Source: Malacoraja senta (taxonomy: Eukaryota). From it: a stretch of DNA of 64,000 nt. Shown here piece by piece: positions 21,001 through 30,000 of the stretch. The DNA is taken from the NCBI GenBank assembly GCA_038087875.1, contig CM075977.1:300514001-300578000 (forward strand). The letters run 5' to 3'. Positions within the stretch are counted from its first letter, which is position 1. Each line of letters opens with the position of its first letter. Made by a program: the position numbers.

Positions 21001-24000
21001 TTTATATCCCTCCTAAGGCCAAATTGACAAAGTATGCCTTCAACTCTAATATTCTACCGGTCTTGATTCTAATAAAACAGATGTAAATTAGAAGACTTTC
21101 CCATTTTGCAAAATAACACCACACAAACTGTAGGGTTGTTTTAGTTAGTGGCAGTAGATGAAAGAGGTGGAGCAGTTCAAATTTAATGCCTTGGGGTCTT
21201 CCCACAATTTATCTCTAACAGATCAGATGCAAACTTCCCTCATACAAACCTAGAACTACTCCCATTGTTTTAGATGATATTGCTACTCTCCTTTCTTCAA
21301 AGAAAATGCTCAATTTGGAGTTTTCTAGTATTCGCTGAACTTGTTTGTGAAAAGGATTAACTGGCTTTGATTTCACTGAGTGGTTGGGAGATCAAAGAAC
21401 ATAATTCTTCAGTCTGTGGGAGATGAGAAAGCAAACATTTCCATGGTAATGAGGATCCATTCTTGGGACACTCAGCAAATTTCCTAATACCCGCAAGGCA
21501 GAATTTTTGAAAGAGTCACAATGAACAAAGACACTCAAATAAGGGTGCCAAACCTCTATAATCCAAATGCAATAATATTTGTACACTCTGGGCAAGTGCC
21601 ACATTATAGAATGTCCTGTGATGAAACATCTGGGAATAACATTTTACAAAACTTTCAACTAGGCAACAGCATCAAATAATGAATATCAAATTGCTGCTTT
21701 CTTATAAACTGCACCCATTTTTTCTTCCCAAGGAAGTTATGTGAGACAGTTCTCATACCGTATGCTTTGTACAGCTATGTTGAAAATGTGACTAAATGTA
21801 CAACAAAATGCAGTTGAAAAGCCTATTTGAACATTTTGAGGAACTCCATTTATATGCAAAACGCCATTAAATTGTTTTTTGAAGTTTTTGATCCCTGTGT
21901 TTCAAAGACAATAACCCAATATCTGAGAATTAATCACAACCAACTAACATTCTAACCCTAACCCACAACTTCTAACCCATCCCTCCCTCACCTCCCAACC
22001 ACTCAACCTCCTGTTGCAAGCCATGTACAGGTGACATTTTGAGTGCATGGATGTCCGTGCATGTAGGAGGAAATAATCAACTGGCATCAGTCTGAAGAAG
22101 GGTCTCGACCTATTCCTTCGCTCCATAGATGCTGCCTCACCCGCTGAGTTTCTCCAGCATTTTTGTCTACCTTCAATTTTTCCAGCATCTGCAGTACTTT
22201 CTTAAACAACTGCCATTATTTAGTCTCTCTCCAACTGCTTCCAACACTGCCTTACTTTCTTAAACAACTGGCATTATTTAGTCTCACTCCAACTGCTTCC
22301 AACACTGCACATTTGTCAAAGTACATTTCATGCAAATTTAACATAATCTTCTCACTCCATCGTAGTCCAAATCATGTACCATTTTTAAGACATGTATGCT
22401 ACAAAATATGTATTATTCTAATATCTTTCAACTTGCAATGAAGCAAAAATAACTTCTGGGTTGGATTCTGATGTTTTTCTGGATGCCAGTGTGAAAAGGT
22501 AAAATAAAACCTTTTTACATTATTGAGTTTTACCTCAGGTGGAGTAAAGCTCTATTGTACTCTCAAGCTAGTTTCAATAAACAAAGGCCATACAAACAAA
22601 GAAACTGAAGTAAATCATCAACTTCTCAAGCCTTTTACACCTTTTAATTTTACTTCGGAGTCACGTGAGTGACTACGTGAAGAAGAGCCCGTCCAGCCGC
22701 ACACGTGTCATATCATCAGACGCATAGCGAAGTGCCGATGTTTGGAGTGAGCAGAGCTCCTCCAAACCGGTAAGTAAAGAAACCTGAAGGTAAGGTTTTA
22801 CTTACGGTTTTCAGGCGATTTAAAAGACTATTAGTAATAAAATACAAGTCATAATGAAGAAATTTGTGGAGGTGCACCGCAGAGTGCTCAGGTCTGTGAC
22901 CAGCGGGCACCCATTTTAAAAACATTTTTTTTAAATGGATGCCGTTTAGCGCTATTTAGATCGCAGAGATAAGAGGTTGCAGTTAAAGAAGTCAGACCGG
23001 AGATCCCCGTTTCAGGTAACTAGTTGGTTATATTTATAAACCTAGTTACAAGGCAATGCAGGAAATGCCTGAGTCAGGTAACTAGTTTGTTATATTTTAA
23101 AAACCTAGTTGCAGGGCAATGCAGGGAATGTCTGGGGAATGTCCAGGTTAACTGTTTGGTCTAAATAGAGCCAGCATATGAAGTGCCTAGGGAAGGTCCG
23201 GGCTTTGTGTTGGGCTAGAGAAGGCCAGTGTATAAGTGCCTGGGGAAGGTCTGTTTTAACATTGTCCCTACAGGGCCAGTGCACGGAGTGCCTGGTGGAG
23301 GTCCAGGTTTAGCGTTGGCCTAGAGGAGAGCCAGTGCATGGAGTGCTTTATAAGGTCCGGCTCAATGTTGGCCTAAAGGGCGAGCCAGCATAGGAAATAT
23401 TTGAGAAAAATCCAGTTCAGCGCTGGCCTACAGGTGAGCCAGTGTGAGCAAATGGTTGGTAAGGTACGTTGGTCTCAGGAGAGCCAGCGCCAACTATATC
23501 TGGATGTTAGCGTTGGCCTAGAGGTGAGCTAGCGCCAGCAGCACCTGAAAGAGGGCTGCCTATGATGGGCCTACAGGAGTGCCTGCGTAGAGAGCAACTG
23601 GAAGGGTTGTTATGCGTAGGCCTATGGGAGAGCCAGCGTTAGAAACACCTGAAGCAGGATGTAAATTCGCCCCTCCATGAGGAAGTTTAGTTTATACAAA
23701 GATTCAAGTAACGGATTATATGAGGCCTAGAGCCCAATACAGAGCCAAAGGACCAGAGTTGGCACAATATATTAAAGTTGTGGTTCCAAAAAAGATGAGG
23801 GAACTATTGGGAGATAAATAAACTATGTCAATTAAATACTTACTCTCCCAGCAGCTCCAGGTTCTAACTAGGTATGAGCTGTCTACAAAAATAAACCCGC
23901 AGTATTGAGTATGATAAGCAAGTCAGCGGGGGAGAGGGTATTGAAATTACTGGTCAGGCGTTAAGGCTTTTTTGACCAAAGGTTGGATGGAGGGCTGGTT

Positions 24001-27000: not shown

Positions 27001-30000
27001 GACTCCAAAGTAAAATAGTAAGATTAAACGTGAACTTACCAGTTTGAAGTTTGATCGTTATTTTATGAGGAGTTACGTTGAGGGATTACGTGCCCTCCGC
27101 TCCCACCCTCATAAAAGATCGAGCTGGTAGTTCTAGTCTTTATGTATCTTACTATCATACTTCACTAATTGTCGTCTGTGATTTCACTCCGCTGCGTTGA
27201 AGATTGACGCTTGTGCGGCTGGACGGGCTCTTCTTCACGTAATCCCTCAACGTAACTCCTCATAAAATAAAGATCAAACTTCAAACTGGTAAGTTCTCAT
27301 TTAATCTTACTATTAAACCACAGCTGATCTGTGGGCCTTAGTTCTATTTACCTGCCCTTGTTACATACCCTTTAATGCTCTTACACAATCTGTTTTTATT
27401 AATTATAGTCTTGAAATTTTAAATTCATCCAGGATCAAAATTTTCATGGGGGCAAAAGTTACAGATTCTCACAACACTTTGCATGATGAGATACTTGCTG
27501 GCATTGCACCTAATTGGGTTGTGTCTAGTTATATCATTTACTCTAGAACTTGCCAATTTAGGAATTAATTTCTAAATCTTTTCTGTCAAATCCATACCTA
27601 GCACCATTGGGTTACTCCTTTACCTTATGCAATCTGTCATTAAAAGTTAACGCTTTTAACCCAGTGAATGTACGTCAAACGATACAACGTTTACATTCTG
27701 CCAATATCAGAAAAAAAGCATATCACCCAGTACACAAGAATAAATGTGCAGTAACTCAGCGGGACAGGCAGCATCTCTGGAGAGAAGGAATGGGTGACGT
27801 TTCGGGTCGATACCCATCTTCCGACGTCTGAAGAAGAAGAATGGGTGATGTTTTGGGACGAGCCCCTTGTTCAGACCTCTGAAGATGGGTCTCGAACCGA
27901 AATGTCACCCATTCCTTCACTTCAAAGATGCTTCCTGTCCCGATGAGTTACTCCAGCATTTTGTGCCTATCTTCGGTTCAAACCAGCATCTGCAGTTCCT
28001 TCCTACACAGTAAATGTACAGTATTCTCTTCATCCCACAATCCAAAAGGCAGTTTAAAGCAAGCACATTCTGTATTTATTAGCCTCCAAATATGTGAAGC
28101 ACAATTTTCAATTAATTTTGAAAATATTCTCAGTCATCCTTGAGTCGGTTGCATCAAATGGCTGTAGGTTGAAGCCTCACTTCAAATGCCCCAGCACATG
28201 GTTAAGGGGTTCAGCACAGTGATGGTGAAATATTGCACCATCACAAGTACCATTTTTTGGATGAGATGTTTGGGTTGACACAATAATTTCAAGAAATATG
28301 CTGAACTAGAAAGTTATCCTGGTGTTCCAGCTAACATATTTTCCAAACAACACCATTAAAGAATTTTGTTTTAAATAACATCTCATTGCTACCTTTGGGA
28401 CCTTGCTGAACATAAATTGGCTGAAATGTCTGCCACCTTCAAGCACTTTATTGGCTGTAAAGTGTTTCAGAACAAATGCATAAGGCAGGCATCATATAAA
28501 GAAAACAATTCTCTTTCCATTTAAAAAAAACAAATACCCAATTAAAAAGTGCTGGAAATACACATCAATTGTTTCATTATCTATAAGATGAGTCAGTCTT
28601 GATCCAGAACAGTGATGTGATAGGATTATCAGAAATACTAACTTATTTGTCTTTCAGACTTTTGAAAATTAAATGAGTAGCTTTACATTTCCTTTCATAG
28701 AGTCATAGAGTGATACAAGTGTGGTACAAGTGTGAAACAGGCCCTTCGGCCCTACTTGCCCACAGCGGCCAACATGTCCCAGCTACACCAGTGGCCCATA
28801 TCCCTCCAAACCAGTCCCATTCATGTACTGAAGAAGGGTTTCGGCCAGAAACGTTGCCTATTTCCTTCGCTCCATAGATGCTGCTGCACCCGCTGAGTTT
28901 CTCCAGCATTTTTGTCTACCTCCCATTCATGTACTGTCTGACTGTTTNNNNNNNNNNNNNNNNNNNNNNNNNNNNNNNNNNNNNNNNNNNNNNNNNNNNN
29001 NNNNNNNNNNNNNNNNNNNNNNNNNNNNNNNNNNNNNNNNNNNNNNNNNNNNNNNNNNNNNNNNNNNNNNNNNNNNNNNNNNNNNNNNNNNNNNNNNNNN
29101 NNNNNNNNNNNNNNNNNNNNAATTAGCCAAGTATAAGTAACATTGAGTATTATTTTATTTGTGTTTTCAATTAACTAAGTATAAATATCATATATTATTT
29201 ATTTATTTATTTGGTAAAAGTTTCTTCATAATCAAAAGAAATTCCTGATCCCCGTTTAGGCTCAAAATGTAGTCAACAAAGAAAATTAATATGACCGATT
29301 AAATTTATATTAAAGTACTCAATGTTTTGGCCATTCAAATATCAATTAACAATGATTCCACCCTCCACCAATAATTGCACTAAAATCTGACCAGTACGGC
29401 AAATAACGGAGACGAGGAAACACTTTTTCTCACAGAGAGTGGTGAGTCTGTGGAATTCTCTGCCTCAGAGGGCGGTGGAGGCGGGTTCTCTGGATGCATT
29501 CAAGAAAGAACTAGATAGAGCTCTTAAAAATAGCAGAGTCAGGGGATATGGGGAGAAGGCAGGAACGGGGGATGATCAGCCATGATCACATTGAATGGCG
29601 GTGCTGGCTCGAAGGGCCGAATGGCCTACTCCTGCACCTATTGTCTATTGTCATAACATAATCAATGCCTCATTTTGCAGACCATGTTTGTTTGTGCACT
29701 ACAGATTGCACCCTGCTACTAATATATGAAAGGTATTGAATTGTACAGCACAAAACAGTCCCTTGGGCACTTCATATCCTTGCCAACCTGTAGATTGGCT
29801 ATTTCATATATCCTTCGTATACCTGGACCTGCTCAATCTAAGGAACATTGCACGGGATCCCATACTAGGTTCTCCAGCCCAACGACTGATGTCTCGCCAA
29901 ACCCGTGCTCCCCTGCCTGTCTCCTAGCAGCTGTTGCAGCCACAAGTTCGTTCCCCGCCTGCCGTTCAGCAACAACTACAATTTAAACGTGACACGCAGA

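What the first reader, a model, noticed from the sequence alone, without database searches (positions are those of the whole stretch)
22647..27314. DIRS copy with pristine cis-termini around heavily decayed coding sequence
Seen: the ICR differs from its own termini at only about 4 of ~112 positions. The last ~350 bp are near-identical to the 58.4-kb element and CpGs are retained. Yet the ~4-kb interior has no ORF over ~90 aa, and RT, RNase H, MT and YR survive only as relic motifs. In-place decay should have eroded both equally. Inference: this belongs to a non-autonomous lineage that kept replicating in trans while its dead genes drifted, under selection only on ITR and ICR.
Basis: partly seen in the sequence, partly recalled or inferred. 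Interest (0 to 1): 0.68.

Follow-up and report, generated by a model that had tools for sequence, protein, structure and literature searches.

The report
Dead DIRS retrotransposon copy, young ends
A 4.7-kb DIRS-type retrotransposon copy in an intron of a vertebrate ADAMTS6 gene has fresh, working-looking ends around a coding interior that was probably already dead when it inserted, so other elements' proteins probably moved it; this kind of element is known but little described in vertebrates.

Summary
Element A (22647-27314, +) has DIRS1-like ends. The inverted terminal repeats are present, and the 113-nt internal complementary region (ICR) mismatches its own termini at 4 positions. ATT sits at both ends. 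CpG observed/expected is 1.0-1.2 in the ends and 0.25 in the interior. No ORF exceeds 86 aa.

A second copy, B (58411-59833, -), is only 1.4 kb. It has the same ends but lacks the whole pol/YR region. A and B are 98% identical in the left ITR and 95% over the last 388 bp. They are 83% or less identical, or unalignable, elsewhere.

Decay in place is therefore very unlikely. A was most likely inserted as a unit when its genes were already dead, which makes it non-autonomous.

Some points are not shown:
- Only an RT-like and a YR-like motif are detectable, and both tests were post hoc. RNase H and MT relics were not verified.
- No DIRS protein could be fetched.
- No eukaryotic genome collection was on hand, so sibling copies sharing A's lesions and an autonomous partner remain unchecked.
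- The near-identity of the ends fits recombination that renews the termini about as well as long selection.

Non-autonomous DIRS elements are already known (TOC1). Interest is modest.

The parts
22647..27314 (+). Element A: non-autonomous DIRS1-like retrotransposon copy, 4668 bp, beginning and ending with ATT
   Evidence: Repeat anatomy. Self-BLAST. Alignment with copy B breaks exactly at these bases, and the flanks are unrelated at 16-25% identity. Sequence read.
22647..22734 (+). Left inverted terminal repeat. The first 37 nt are repeated as reverse complement in the ICR.
   Evidence: 22647-22734 against 27268-27185, 83% over 89 columns. Core 22666-22710 against 27205-27249, 41/45. 63/64 identical to B over 22647-22710.
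22735..22854 (+). Leader between the left ITR and the ORF1-like start. Conservation against B falls inward.
   Evidence: 22711-22794 is 83% identical to B and 22795-22860 is 62%. CpG o/e of the first 214 bp is 1.23.
22855..23660 (+). Broken ORF1-like (gag-position) zone with about 54-bp tandem repeats
   Evidence: The three plus frames carry 17, 12 and 15 stops in 268 codons. tblastn of B's ORF against A gives two matches in two different frames; the best covers aa 106-196 at 43% identity, E 2.5e-14. The first 105 aa have no match. Repeats.
23661..26927 (+). Dead interior in the pol (RT/RH/MT) and YR position, treated as one broken unit
   Evidence: 71, 76 and 61 stops in the three plus frames of about 1088 codons. 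GC 0.346 and CpG o/e 0.25. No Pfam, PDB, atlas or HMMER hit. Frameshifts, insertions and deletions cannot be counted without an intact relative.
24289..24333 (+). RT domain-2-like motif, the only one in the window
   Evidence: Recalled short pattern: 1 match in six frames of 64 kb and 0 in 2000 shuffles of A. The test is post hoc.
26188..26247 (+). Motif resembling the N-terminal part of DIRS/Ngaro/Crypton-type tyrosine recombinases
   Evidence: Recalled short pattern: 1 match in the window and 0 in 2000 shuffles. The test is post hoc.
26928..26979 (+). Conserved stretch just upstream of the ICR
   Evidence: 48/52 identical to B, against 83% for the 133 bp before it.
26980..27092 (+). Internal complementary region (ICR). 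The reverse complements of the left end and the right end are joined with a 3-nt overlap.
   Evidence: 36/37 and 76/79. 108/113 identical to B's ICR. CpG o/e 1.60.
27093..27184 (+). Spacer between the ICR and the right ITR
   Evidence: 27093-27204 is 106/111 identical to B. It forms the loop of the long hairpin.
27185..27314 (+). Right inverted terminal repeat with its extension. The last 79 nt pair with the ICR.
   Evidence: As minus-strand single-stranded DNA, 26970-27320 folds at -98.5 kcal/mol, z -16.9, with 0 of 100 shuffles as stable.
58411..59833 (-). Element B: 1423-bp internally deleted copy of the same family. It has the same ends and ICR (58632-58744) and lacks the whole pol/YR region.
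   Evidence: B's ICR against its own ends: 37/37 and 76/79. CpG o/e 0.79.
58998..59618 (-). Intact 206-aa ORF in B (ORF1 position) ending in WPTGEP-type 18-aa repeats
   Evidence: An open stretch of 213 aa is reached by 3 of 2000 shuffles of B. No Pfam family. No homologue in two word-based protein searches.
3..36419 (-). Host gene context: four ADAMTS6 exon matches (36419-36309, 35601-35230, 34194-34024, 215-3). A lies in the 33.8-kb intron, antisense to the gene. B lies about 22 kb upstream of the first match.
   Evidence: Pfam Pep_M12B_propep, E 3e-23. Named ADAMTS6 hits. tblastn of P0002, 89-100% identity per exon. The exons were mapped one by one and were not joined.

Best explanation
Element A is a non-autonomous derivative of a DIRS1-like tyrosine-recombinase retrotransposon. 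It entered this ADAMTS6 intron as one 4668-bp unit at an ATT target, by the usual DIRS route. In that route an RNA is reverse-transcribed, the ICR is used to restore and join the two ends, and a recombinase integrates the product. A's own genes were already unreadable when this happened, so the reverse transcriptase and recombinase came from another element. Only the cis-acting block was kept in working order: the first 64-90 bp and the last ~390 bp.

Shown here:
- the anatomy;
- the age contrast between ends and interior;
- the sharing of the ends with a second copy that also cannot code for RT or YR.

Inferred:
- supply of the proteins in trans;
- the way the ends were kept fresh, either by purifying selection along a replicating lineage or by recombination or template switching with active relatives.
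For: 1. Canonical DIRS1-like ends are present: ITRs, an ICR built from the two outer ends, and ATT at both ends with a 3-nt overlap at the junction. In passages I read, 23 of 28 annotated DIRS1-like elements begin and end with NTT, mostly ATT (PMC3266345).
2. The ends are young. ICR and termini differ at 4 of 113 positions, about 1.8% per site per partner. The 37-nt left pair lies 4.3 kb apart and is 36/37.
3. The interior is old. CpG o/e is 0.25, equal to the flanks, against 1.0-1.2 in the ends (P 5e-10). Stop density is close to that of shuffled sequence. No domain is detectable. The LINE copy at 49956-53740 in the same window still gives Pfam hits from 330-413-aa open stretches.
4. Divergence from copy B is far from uniform: 98% and 95% in the ends, and 83%, 62% or unalignable inside.
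5. B has a different lesion, a deletion of the whole pol/YR region, but the same intact ends. So 2 of 2 family members in the window are non-coding for RT and YR yet structurally competent.
6. Flanks diverge at the very first and last base, so the unit integrated whole.
7. In sections I read, the ICR is essential for DIRS-1 retrotransposition and its RT can copy a truncated element's RNA in trans (PMC7192593). [quoted passage not shown]
Against: - No sibling copy with A's interior and no autonomous partner is in the window. Neither could be sought genome-wide.
- Descent of the interior from DIRS genes rests on two post hoc motif hits and on position. RH and MT relics are unverified.
- Timescale. 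Drifting a 3.3-kb interior to near-random stop density and background CpG takes very long. Yet the ends of A and B were about 98% identical or more at insertion. Their 4.65% difference is mostly covered by the 1.8% + 1.3% post-insertion decay estimated from ICR-terminus mismatches. Pure selection on every base of a 388-bp non-coding block is a strained reading.
- A long dead interior kept without deletion is unexpected when short forms such as B exist.
- A complete trans cycle was not shown for DIRS-1 in the paper read.
- Termini free of methylation would also keep their CpGs. That would not explain the identity at non-CpG sites.
Confidence: 0.7

Rival explanations
1. Recombinant origin. A's young ends and old interior come from different parents. 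Template switching between two co-packaged RNAs, or recombination among source copies, grafted the ends of an active family member onto the transcript of an ancient dead copy. The product was then inserted once. No long-lived A-type lineage need exist. This is still mobilisation in trans, so it overlaps with the best explanation.
For: The ends of A and B were about 98% identical or more at insertion, while the ORF1 N-part is unalignable. Identity drops in steps: 98% to 83% to 62% on the left, and 95% to 83% on the right. Only one copy of the interior is in the window.
Against: It needs two switches. The steps are measured on short stretches of 52-133 bp and could equally be a gradient of constraint. 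An ancient dead transcript would still have to be taken up by the machinery.
Confidence: 0.2
2. Decay in place. A was inserted intact and long ago. Its ends look young because they mutate less, for example through lack of methylation, or because gene conversion keeps ICR and termini alike.
For: The 79-nt ICR-right-end pair lies only 143 nt apart and could in principle be homogenised. CpG retention alone could reflect lack of methylation.
Against: - The 37-nt left pair is 4.3 kb apart and 36/37 identical, which is too short and too distant for conversion.
- The unpaired spacer 27093-27204 is 95.5% identical to B on another part of the window.
- Half of the A/B differences in the last 388 bp are at non-CpG sites, and there are only 9 of them.
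- Identity to B ends exactly at the element's last bases.
Confidence: 0.05
3. One-step hypermutation. A deaminase edited the single-stranded cDNA of an intact parent in one cycle. The ITR-ICR duplexes were protected, giving a ruined interior between clean ends.
For: DIRS-1 makes mostly linear single-stranded cDNA (PMC7192593 abstract). The ICR-right-end region forms a very stable hairpin. The interior is AT-rich, with GC 0.346 against 0.39 in the flanks.
Against: - In the stretches comparable with B, about half of the differences are transversions and no single transition type dominates: leader 19 of 39, repeat zone 69 of 138.
- The unpaired spacer and the first 214 bp are also clean.
- The interior's CpG deficit with CpA/TpG excess is the ordinary host pattern.
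Confidence: 0.03
4. The interior is not DIRS-derived. It is unrelated DNA captured between DIRS ends, or a nest of other repeats inside a B-like short element.
For: No database or profile search recognises any domain. B shows that a short form without this interior exists.
Against: RT-like and YR-like motifs sit on the sense strand in the canonical order, and each is unique in the window. The total length of 4.7 kb is that of a complete DIRS-1 (4814 bp per PMC7192593). No part of the interior matches any other repeat in the window.
Confidence: 0.02

Closest known systems
DIRS1-like retrotransposons (order DIRS): DIRS-1 of Dictyostelium and vertebrate DIRS1-like families
   Same: Non-identical inverted terminal repeats. 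An ICR made of the complements of both outer ends. ATT at both ends with a 3-nt junction overlap. Length near 4.8 kb. Order ORF1, then an RT-like motif, then a YR-like motif, then the ICR (PMC7192593 and PMC3266345 passages).
   Different: A has no readable gag, RT/RH/MT or YR gene. B lacks that region altogether.
TOC1 of Chlamydomonas reinhardtii, named a non-autonomous DIRS retrotransposon
   Same: An element of the DIRS order that cannot code for its own machinery yet has changed copy number (PMC9940879 passage).
   Different: It is from an alga, not a vertebrate. I saw one passage only. Its terminal structure and its relation to TOC3 are recalled, not checked here.
LARD / Dasheng-RIRE2-type non-autonomous LTR retrotransposons
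   Same: A long non-coding interior between termini shared with an active partner. This is the pattern of A.
   Different: They have direct LTRs, integrase-based insertion and target-site duplications. The comparison is from recall; I saw the Dasheng paper only as a reference-list entry.
Mini-elements kept mobile by their ends alone (mini-Ty1)
   Same: B keeps only terminal stretches of a few hundred bases. In the section I read, mini-Ty1 needs 380 nt of the 5' end and 357 nt of the 3' end (PMC7192593 section 21). The conserved block here is about 64-90 nt on the left and about 390 nt on the right.
   Different: Ty1 is an LTR element, and the minimal set was determined experimentally there. 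Here it is only inferred from conservation between two copies.

Membership tests
DIRS1-like retrotransposon (cis structure) | Inverted, non-identical terminal repeats | tested here: met
   22647-22734 against 27185-27271, 83%. Core 41/45. The right repeat extends about 43 nt further.
DIRS1-like retrotransposon (cis structure) | ICR near the right end, complementary to the outer part of the left ITR and the outer part of the right ITR, placed side by side | tested here: met
   36/37 and 76/79 in A. 37/37 and 76/79 in B.
DIRS1-like retrotransposon (cis structure) | Same trinucleotide (NTT, mostly ATT) at both ends, matching the 3-bp circle junction. No longer target duplication. | tested here: met
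   ATT at 22647-22649 and 27312-27314, and at both ends of B. The two ICR halves overlap by 3 nt. No longer direct repeat is seen in the flanks (read; literature).
DIRS1-like retrotransposon (autonomous member) | Open reading frames for gag-like protein, RT/RNase H/MT and tyrosine recombinase | tested here: not met
   Longest ORF is 86 aa. 0 of 119 stretches hit these Pfam families. So A is filed as a derivative of the family and not as an autonomous member.
DIRS1-like retrotransposon (descent of the interior) | Recognisable remains of RT, RH, MT and YR in canonical order on the sense strand | tested here: inconclusive
   RT-like and YR-like short motifs each hit once in the window and 0 times in 2000 shuffles, post hoc. 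RH and MT were seen by eye only. No DIRS protein could be fetched for an alignment.
Non-autonomous retroelement lineage (TOC1-like, LARD-like) | No coding capacity, but complete cis-acting ends shared with other family members | tested here: met
Non-autonomous retroelement lineage (TOC1-like, LARD-like) | Several copies that share the same non-coding interior and the same lesions | not testable with these tools
   No second copy is in the window. No eukaryotic genome collection was on hand. 10 of 10 window ORFs are absent from the protein collection.
Non-autonomous retroelement lineage (TOC1-like, LARD-like) | An autonomous partner with matching termini in the same genome | not testable with these tools
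   None is in the window. Pfam on 150 of the 183 stop-free stretches of 75 aa or more outside A found RT only in LINE-type copies.
Ngaro / PAT-like YR retrotransposons | Split direct repeats (A1 ... B1 A2 B2) in place of ITR plus ICR | tested here: not met
   All terminal repeats within A are inverted.
LTR retrotransposon / endogenous retrovirus | Direct long terminal repeats and a 4-6-bp target-site duplication | tested here: not met

The most novel reading that the evidence does not exclude
A belongs to a long-lived, LARD-like DIRS lineage in a vertebrate. Its roughly 450 nt of cis sequence have been held nearly invariant while more than 3 kb of dead coding sequence was carried along undeleted. 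This would point to a requirement for interior length or structure, for example in packaging or in folding of the single-stranded cDNA. It would also give a natural map of the minimal cis-acting set of DIRS elements, which has not been defined experimentally.
Probability: 0.2. Interest if true: 0.5.

Novelty: new member of a known kind. Interest (0 to 1): 0.3.

Why it matters
DIRS elements replicate by a poorly understood route. The paper I read shows that the ICR is essential but leaves open whether all the proteins act in trans. Two structurally competent copies that cannot code for RT or YR, sharing about 64-90 nt on the left and about 390 nt on the right, give a natural estimate of which sequences the machinery needs. 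They are also descriptive evidence that the whole cycle can work in trans in a vertebrate. For genome annotation, such copies would be missed by protein-based DIRS finders and would distort age estimates made from whole-copy divergence.

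Tried and rejected
Fetching an intact DIRS protein to align with the interior. All routes failed:
- B's ORF searched against longer proteins and against proteins of similar length: 0 hits.
- An RH-like 79-aa piece against 1.84 billion representatives: 1 hit, P0001. It is a translated tandem repeat scoring through 10 weak stretches and is spurious.
- PDB with two RT-like pieces: 0 hits and 2 noise hits.
- Protein atlas with a YR-like piece: no usable hit.
- Exact look-up of 10 window ORFs: none is in the collection. Sibling copies therefore cannot be traced through proteins.

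Other checks:
- The third word-based search went to the neighbouring host exon, which is ADAMTS6.
- Rfam gave 0 matches and the tRNA scan 0 genes.
- The dinucleotide-signature comparison of interior, ends and B with the host intron is inconclusive. Once length is allowed for, all three lie 3-4 sd from random intron pieces. I do not rely on it.
- The substitution spectrum of A against B shows no deaminase-like bias.
- Other RT pieces in the window (8885-9416, 17503-17829, 51567-53740) are LINE-type and not DIRS.

Literature:
- The phrases 'non-autonomous DIRS', 'nonautonomous DIRS', 'DIRS non-autonomous', 'non-autonomous DIRS-like' and 'DIRS-derived' returned 5 papers. Only the TOC1 passage was relevant.
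- Passages on 'nonautonomous', 'autonomous' or 'degenerate' in the Xenopus DIRS paper and on 'non-autonomous' in the caecilian paper describe no non-autonomous DIRS.

Unchecked:
- Genome contigs holds only bacteria and archaea and was not used.
These include the DIRS domain profiles of PMC3266345 and the copy tables of PMC9210276, which could bear on relic detection and on degenerate copies.

Full report
**What is there.** The window is vertebrate-like DNA. CpG observed/expected is 0.2-0.8 in 2-kb bins. One N run lies at 28948-29120 and was left untouched. I do not take the window for human. The ADAMTS6 exon it holds is at most 69% identical to any named vertebrate protein, including the human one at 67%.

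The finding's coordinates are exact. Element A runs from 22647 to 27314 on the plus strand. It begins and ends with ATT. Its alignment with a second copy breaks at exactly these bases.

**Anatomy of A**:
- The left ITR is 22647-22734 and the right ITR is 27185-27314.
- They are inverted at 83% over 89 columns, and the core is 41/45. The right repeat is about 43 nt longer.
- The ICR is 26980-27092. Its first 37 nt are the reverse complement of the left end (36/37). Its last 79 nt are the reverse complement of the right end (76/79). The two halves overlap by 3 nt.
- As minus-strand single-stranded DNA, 26970-27320 folds into one long hairpin of -98.5 kcal/mol (z -16.9, 0 of 100 shuffles as stable).

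This is the architecture of DIRS1-like elements. In passages I read, the outer sequences of the non-identical inverted repeats are repeated side by side in the ICR (PMC7192593). Also, 23 of 28 annotated elements begin and end with NTT, most often ATT, which matches the 3-bp circle junction (PMC3266345).

**The second copy.** The '58.4-kb element' is copy B, 58411-59833 on the minus strand. It is only 1423 bp long.
- It has the same first and last bases and its own ICR at 58632-58744. That ICR matches B's ends at 37/37 and 76/79.
- It has an intact 206-aa ORF in the ORF1 position, ending in 18-aa repeats.
- Everything between the ORF1 repeats and about 185 nt upstream of the ICR is missing. B therefore has no pol and no recombinase region.
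- An open stretch as long as B's 213 aa is reached by 3 of 2000 shuffles of B, so the ORF is probably maintained or young.
- The ORF has no Pfam family and no detectable homologue.
- No other member of this family is in the window.

**The age contrast within A.**
- CpG observed/expected is 1.23 in the first 214 bp (12 CpGs) and 1.00 in the last 388 bp (16 CpGs). It is 0.25 in the interior 23661-26790 (23 CpGs, GC 0.346). The interior value equals the surrounding intron at 0.23-0.35.
- At the interior's ratio the ends would hold 6.6 CpGs. They hold 28 (Poisson P 5e-10).
- The interior's three plus frames carry 71, 76 and 61 stops in about 1088 codons. The ORF1-like zone carries 17, 12 and 15 stops in 268 codons.
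- Shuffled sequence gives 87 +/- 9 stops per frame, and its longest open stretch is as long as the real one.
- Frameshifts, insertions and deletions cannot be counted without an intact relative.
- If ICR and termini were complementary at insertion, 4 mismatches mean about 1.8% change per site since then. A working element changed by 1.8% would still show reading frames of hundreds of codons and clear Pfam domains. For comparison, the LINE copy at 49956-53740 in the same window still gives Pfam hits from 330-413-aa open stretches.

**The contrast against copy B.** Identity of A to B by segment:

| Segment of A | Identity to B |
|---|---|
| Left ITR, 22647-22710 | 63/64 |
| Leader, 22711-22794 | 83% |
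| 22795-22860 | 62% |
| ORF1 N-part | 39% (unalignable) |
| ORF1 repeat zone | 57% |
| 26795-26927 | 83% |
| 26928-26979, before the ICR | 48/52 |
| ICR | 108/113 |
| Spacer | 106/111 |
| Right ITR | 107/111 |

- At the protein level, only the repeat part of B's ORF (aa 106-196) finds A, at 43% identity, with a second match in another frame. Its first 105 aa find nothing.
- In the last 388 bp there are 18 differences, 9 of them at CpGs. Twelve of A's 16 CpGs are shared with B.
- Subtracting the decay estimated from ICR-terminus mismatches (1.8% for A and 1.3% for B) from the 4.65% difference leaves about 1.5%. The two copies' ends were thus about 98% identical or more when they inserted.

**Is the interior really dead DIRS coding sequence?** I could not show this by search.
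- Pfam on all 119 stop-free stretches of 25 aa or more gave no RT, RNase H, methyltransferase or recombinase hit on the sense strand. Seven stretches gave noise below the cut-offs, including one methyltransferase row on the wrong strand.
- PDB, the protein atlas and a full HMMER search with an RNase H-like piece gave nothing real.
- Reading the three frames, I see strings that resemble the RT, RNase H and recombinase regions, in that order.
- Two short patterns that I wrote from recall afterwards each match once in the whole window: the RT-like one at 24289-24333 and the YR-like one at 26188-26247. Both are on A's plus strand. Neither matches in 2000 shuffles.
- These tests are post hoc, and the motifs come from memory and not from a tool.
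- The RNase H and MT relics remain unverified.

**Mechanism.** The most likely account is that A was inserted whole at an ATT site when its genes were already unreadable, using RT and recombinase supplied by another element.
- The paper I read shows that the ICR is indispensable for DIRS-1 retrotransposition. It also shows that the RT can copy the RNA of a truncated element in trans. A complete trans cycle could not be scored there (PMC7192593, abstract and sections 20-21).
- TOC1 of Chlamydomonas is called a non-autonomous DIRS retrotransposon in a passage I read (PMC9940879). The kind is therefore known.

How the ends stayed fresh is open. Two readings remain.
It fits the direction of the data. 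However, the conserved block is wider than ITR plus ICR, and about 98% identity or more over 388 non-coding bases is hard to reconcile with the very long drift the interior implies.
- The alternative is renewal of the ends by recombination or template switching with active relatives. This fits at least as well. It is also the pattern known from non-autonomous LTR elements that share termini with a partner, which I state from recall.

The window alone cannot separate the two.

**Rivals weighed.**
- Decay in place is very unlikely. The left-end pair, 4.3 kb apart, is 36/37. The unpaired spacer is 95.5% identical to B. Identity stops at the element's last bases.
- One-step deaminase editing with duplex-protected ends is unlikely. 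Where A can be compared with B, about half of the differences are transversions, and the unpaired parts of the ends are clean too.
- Capture of unrelated DNA is unlikely given the two sense-strand motifs and the full-length size.

**Context.** The open stretch at 35185-35688 is an ADAMTS6 exon. Protein P0002, which is unnamed and 97% identical to that stretch, maps to four exon matches on the minus strand at 36419-36309, 35601-35230, 34194-34024 and 215-3. A therefore lies in a 33.8-kb intron, antisense to the gene. B lies about 22 kb upstream of the first match, on the gene's strand. The exons were mapped one by one. I left out the step of joining them into a spliced model.

**What stayed unchecked.**
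- Genome-wide copies of A's interior, shared lesions and an autonomous partner could not be sought.
- Supplementary files of the DIRS papers were closed. These include domain profiles and copy tables, which could bear on relic detection and on whether degenerate copies with intact ends have been tabulated.

**Verdict.** The inference of a non-autonomous copy moved in trans is well supported. The stronger claim of a long-lived lineage under selection on ITR and ICR alone is not established. The finding is a new member of a known kind and is of modest interest.

Noticed in passing
58998-59618 (-), inside copy B: An intact 206-aa ORF ends in 4.5 copies of a 54-bp (18-aa, WPTGEP-type) repeat. It has no Pfam family and no homologue in two protein searches. 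An open stretch this long is reached by 3 of 2000 shuffles of B. It may be a lineage-specific gag-like ORF1 kept in a short non-autonomous element.
   Followed up: partly
12798-12826, 18960-18988, 22127-22155, 28876-28904, 53977-54005; also 27747-27962: A SINE-like repeat occurs at least 5 times in the window (29-nt core, up to 3 mismatches, 0 expected by chance). Copies flank element A on both sides in opposite orientations. ARAGORN finds no tRNA-like head and Rfam gives no match.
   Followed up: partly
15828-17054 (+): A Tc1/mariner-type transposase (HTH_SB, HTH_Tnp_Tc3_2, DDE_3) is split over two open stretches.
   Followed up: no
49956-53740 (+); 8885-9416 (-); 17503-17829 (-): LINE-type retrotransposon remains. 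One has endonuclease plus RT in three open stretches of 330-413 aa. Two are shorter RT pieces with an FADD-type box. All are far better preserved than A's interior.
   Followed up: partly
3-215, 34024-34194, 35230-35601, 36309-36419 (-): Four exon matches of an ADAMTS6 gene. Named vertebrate orthologues reach 69% at most.
   Followed up: partly
58799-58856 in copy B (-), relative to A at about 26928: B carries a 58-bp stretch absent from A just upstream of the conserved terminal block. It begins with a (TAA)n microsatellite.
   Followed up: no
22999-23134 (+): Two overlapping 62-63-bp tandem duplications lie in A's ORF1-like zone (81-87% identical copies). They have no counterpart in B.
   Followed up: no
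28948-29120: A run of 173 N. It was left as it is.
   Followed up: no
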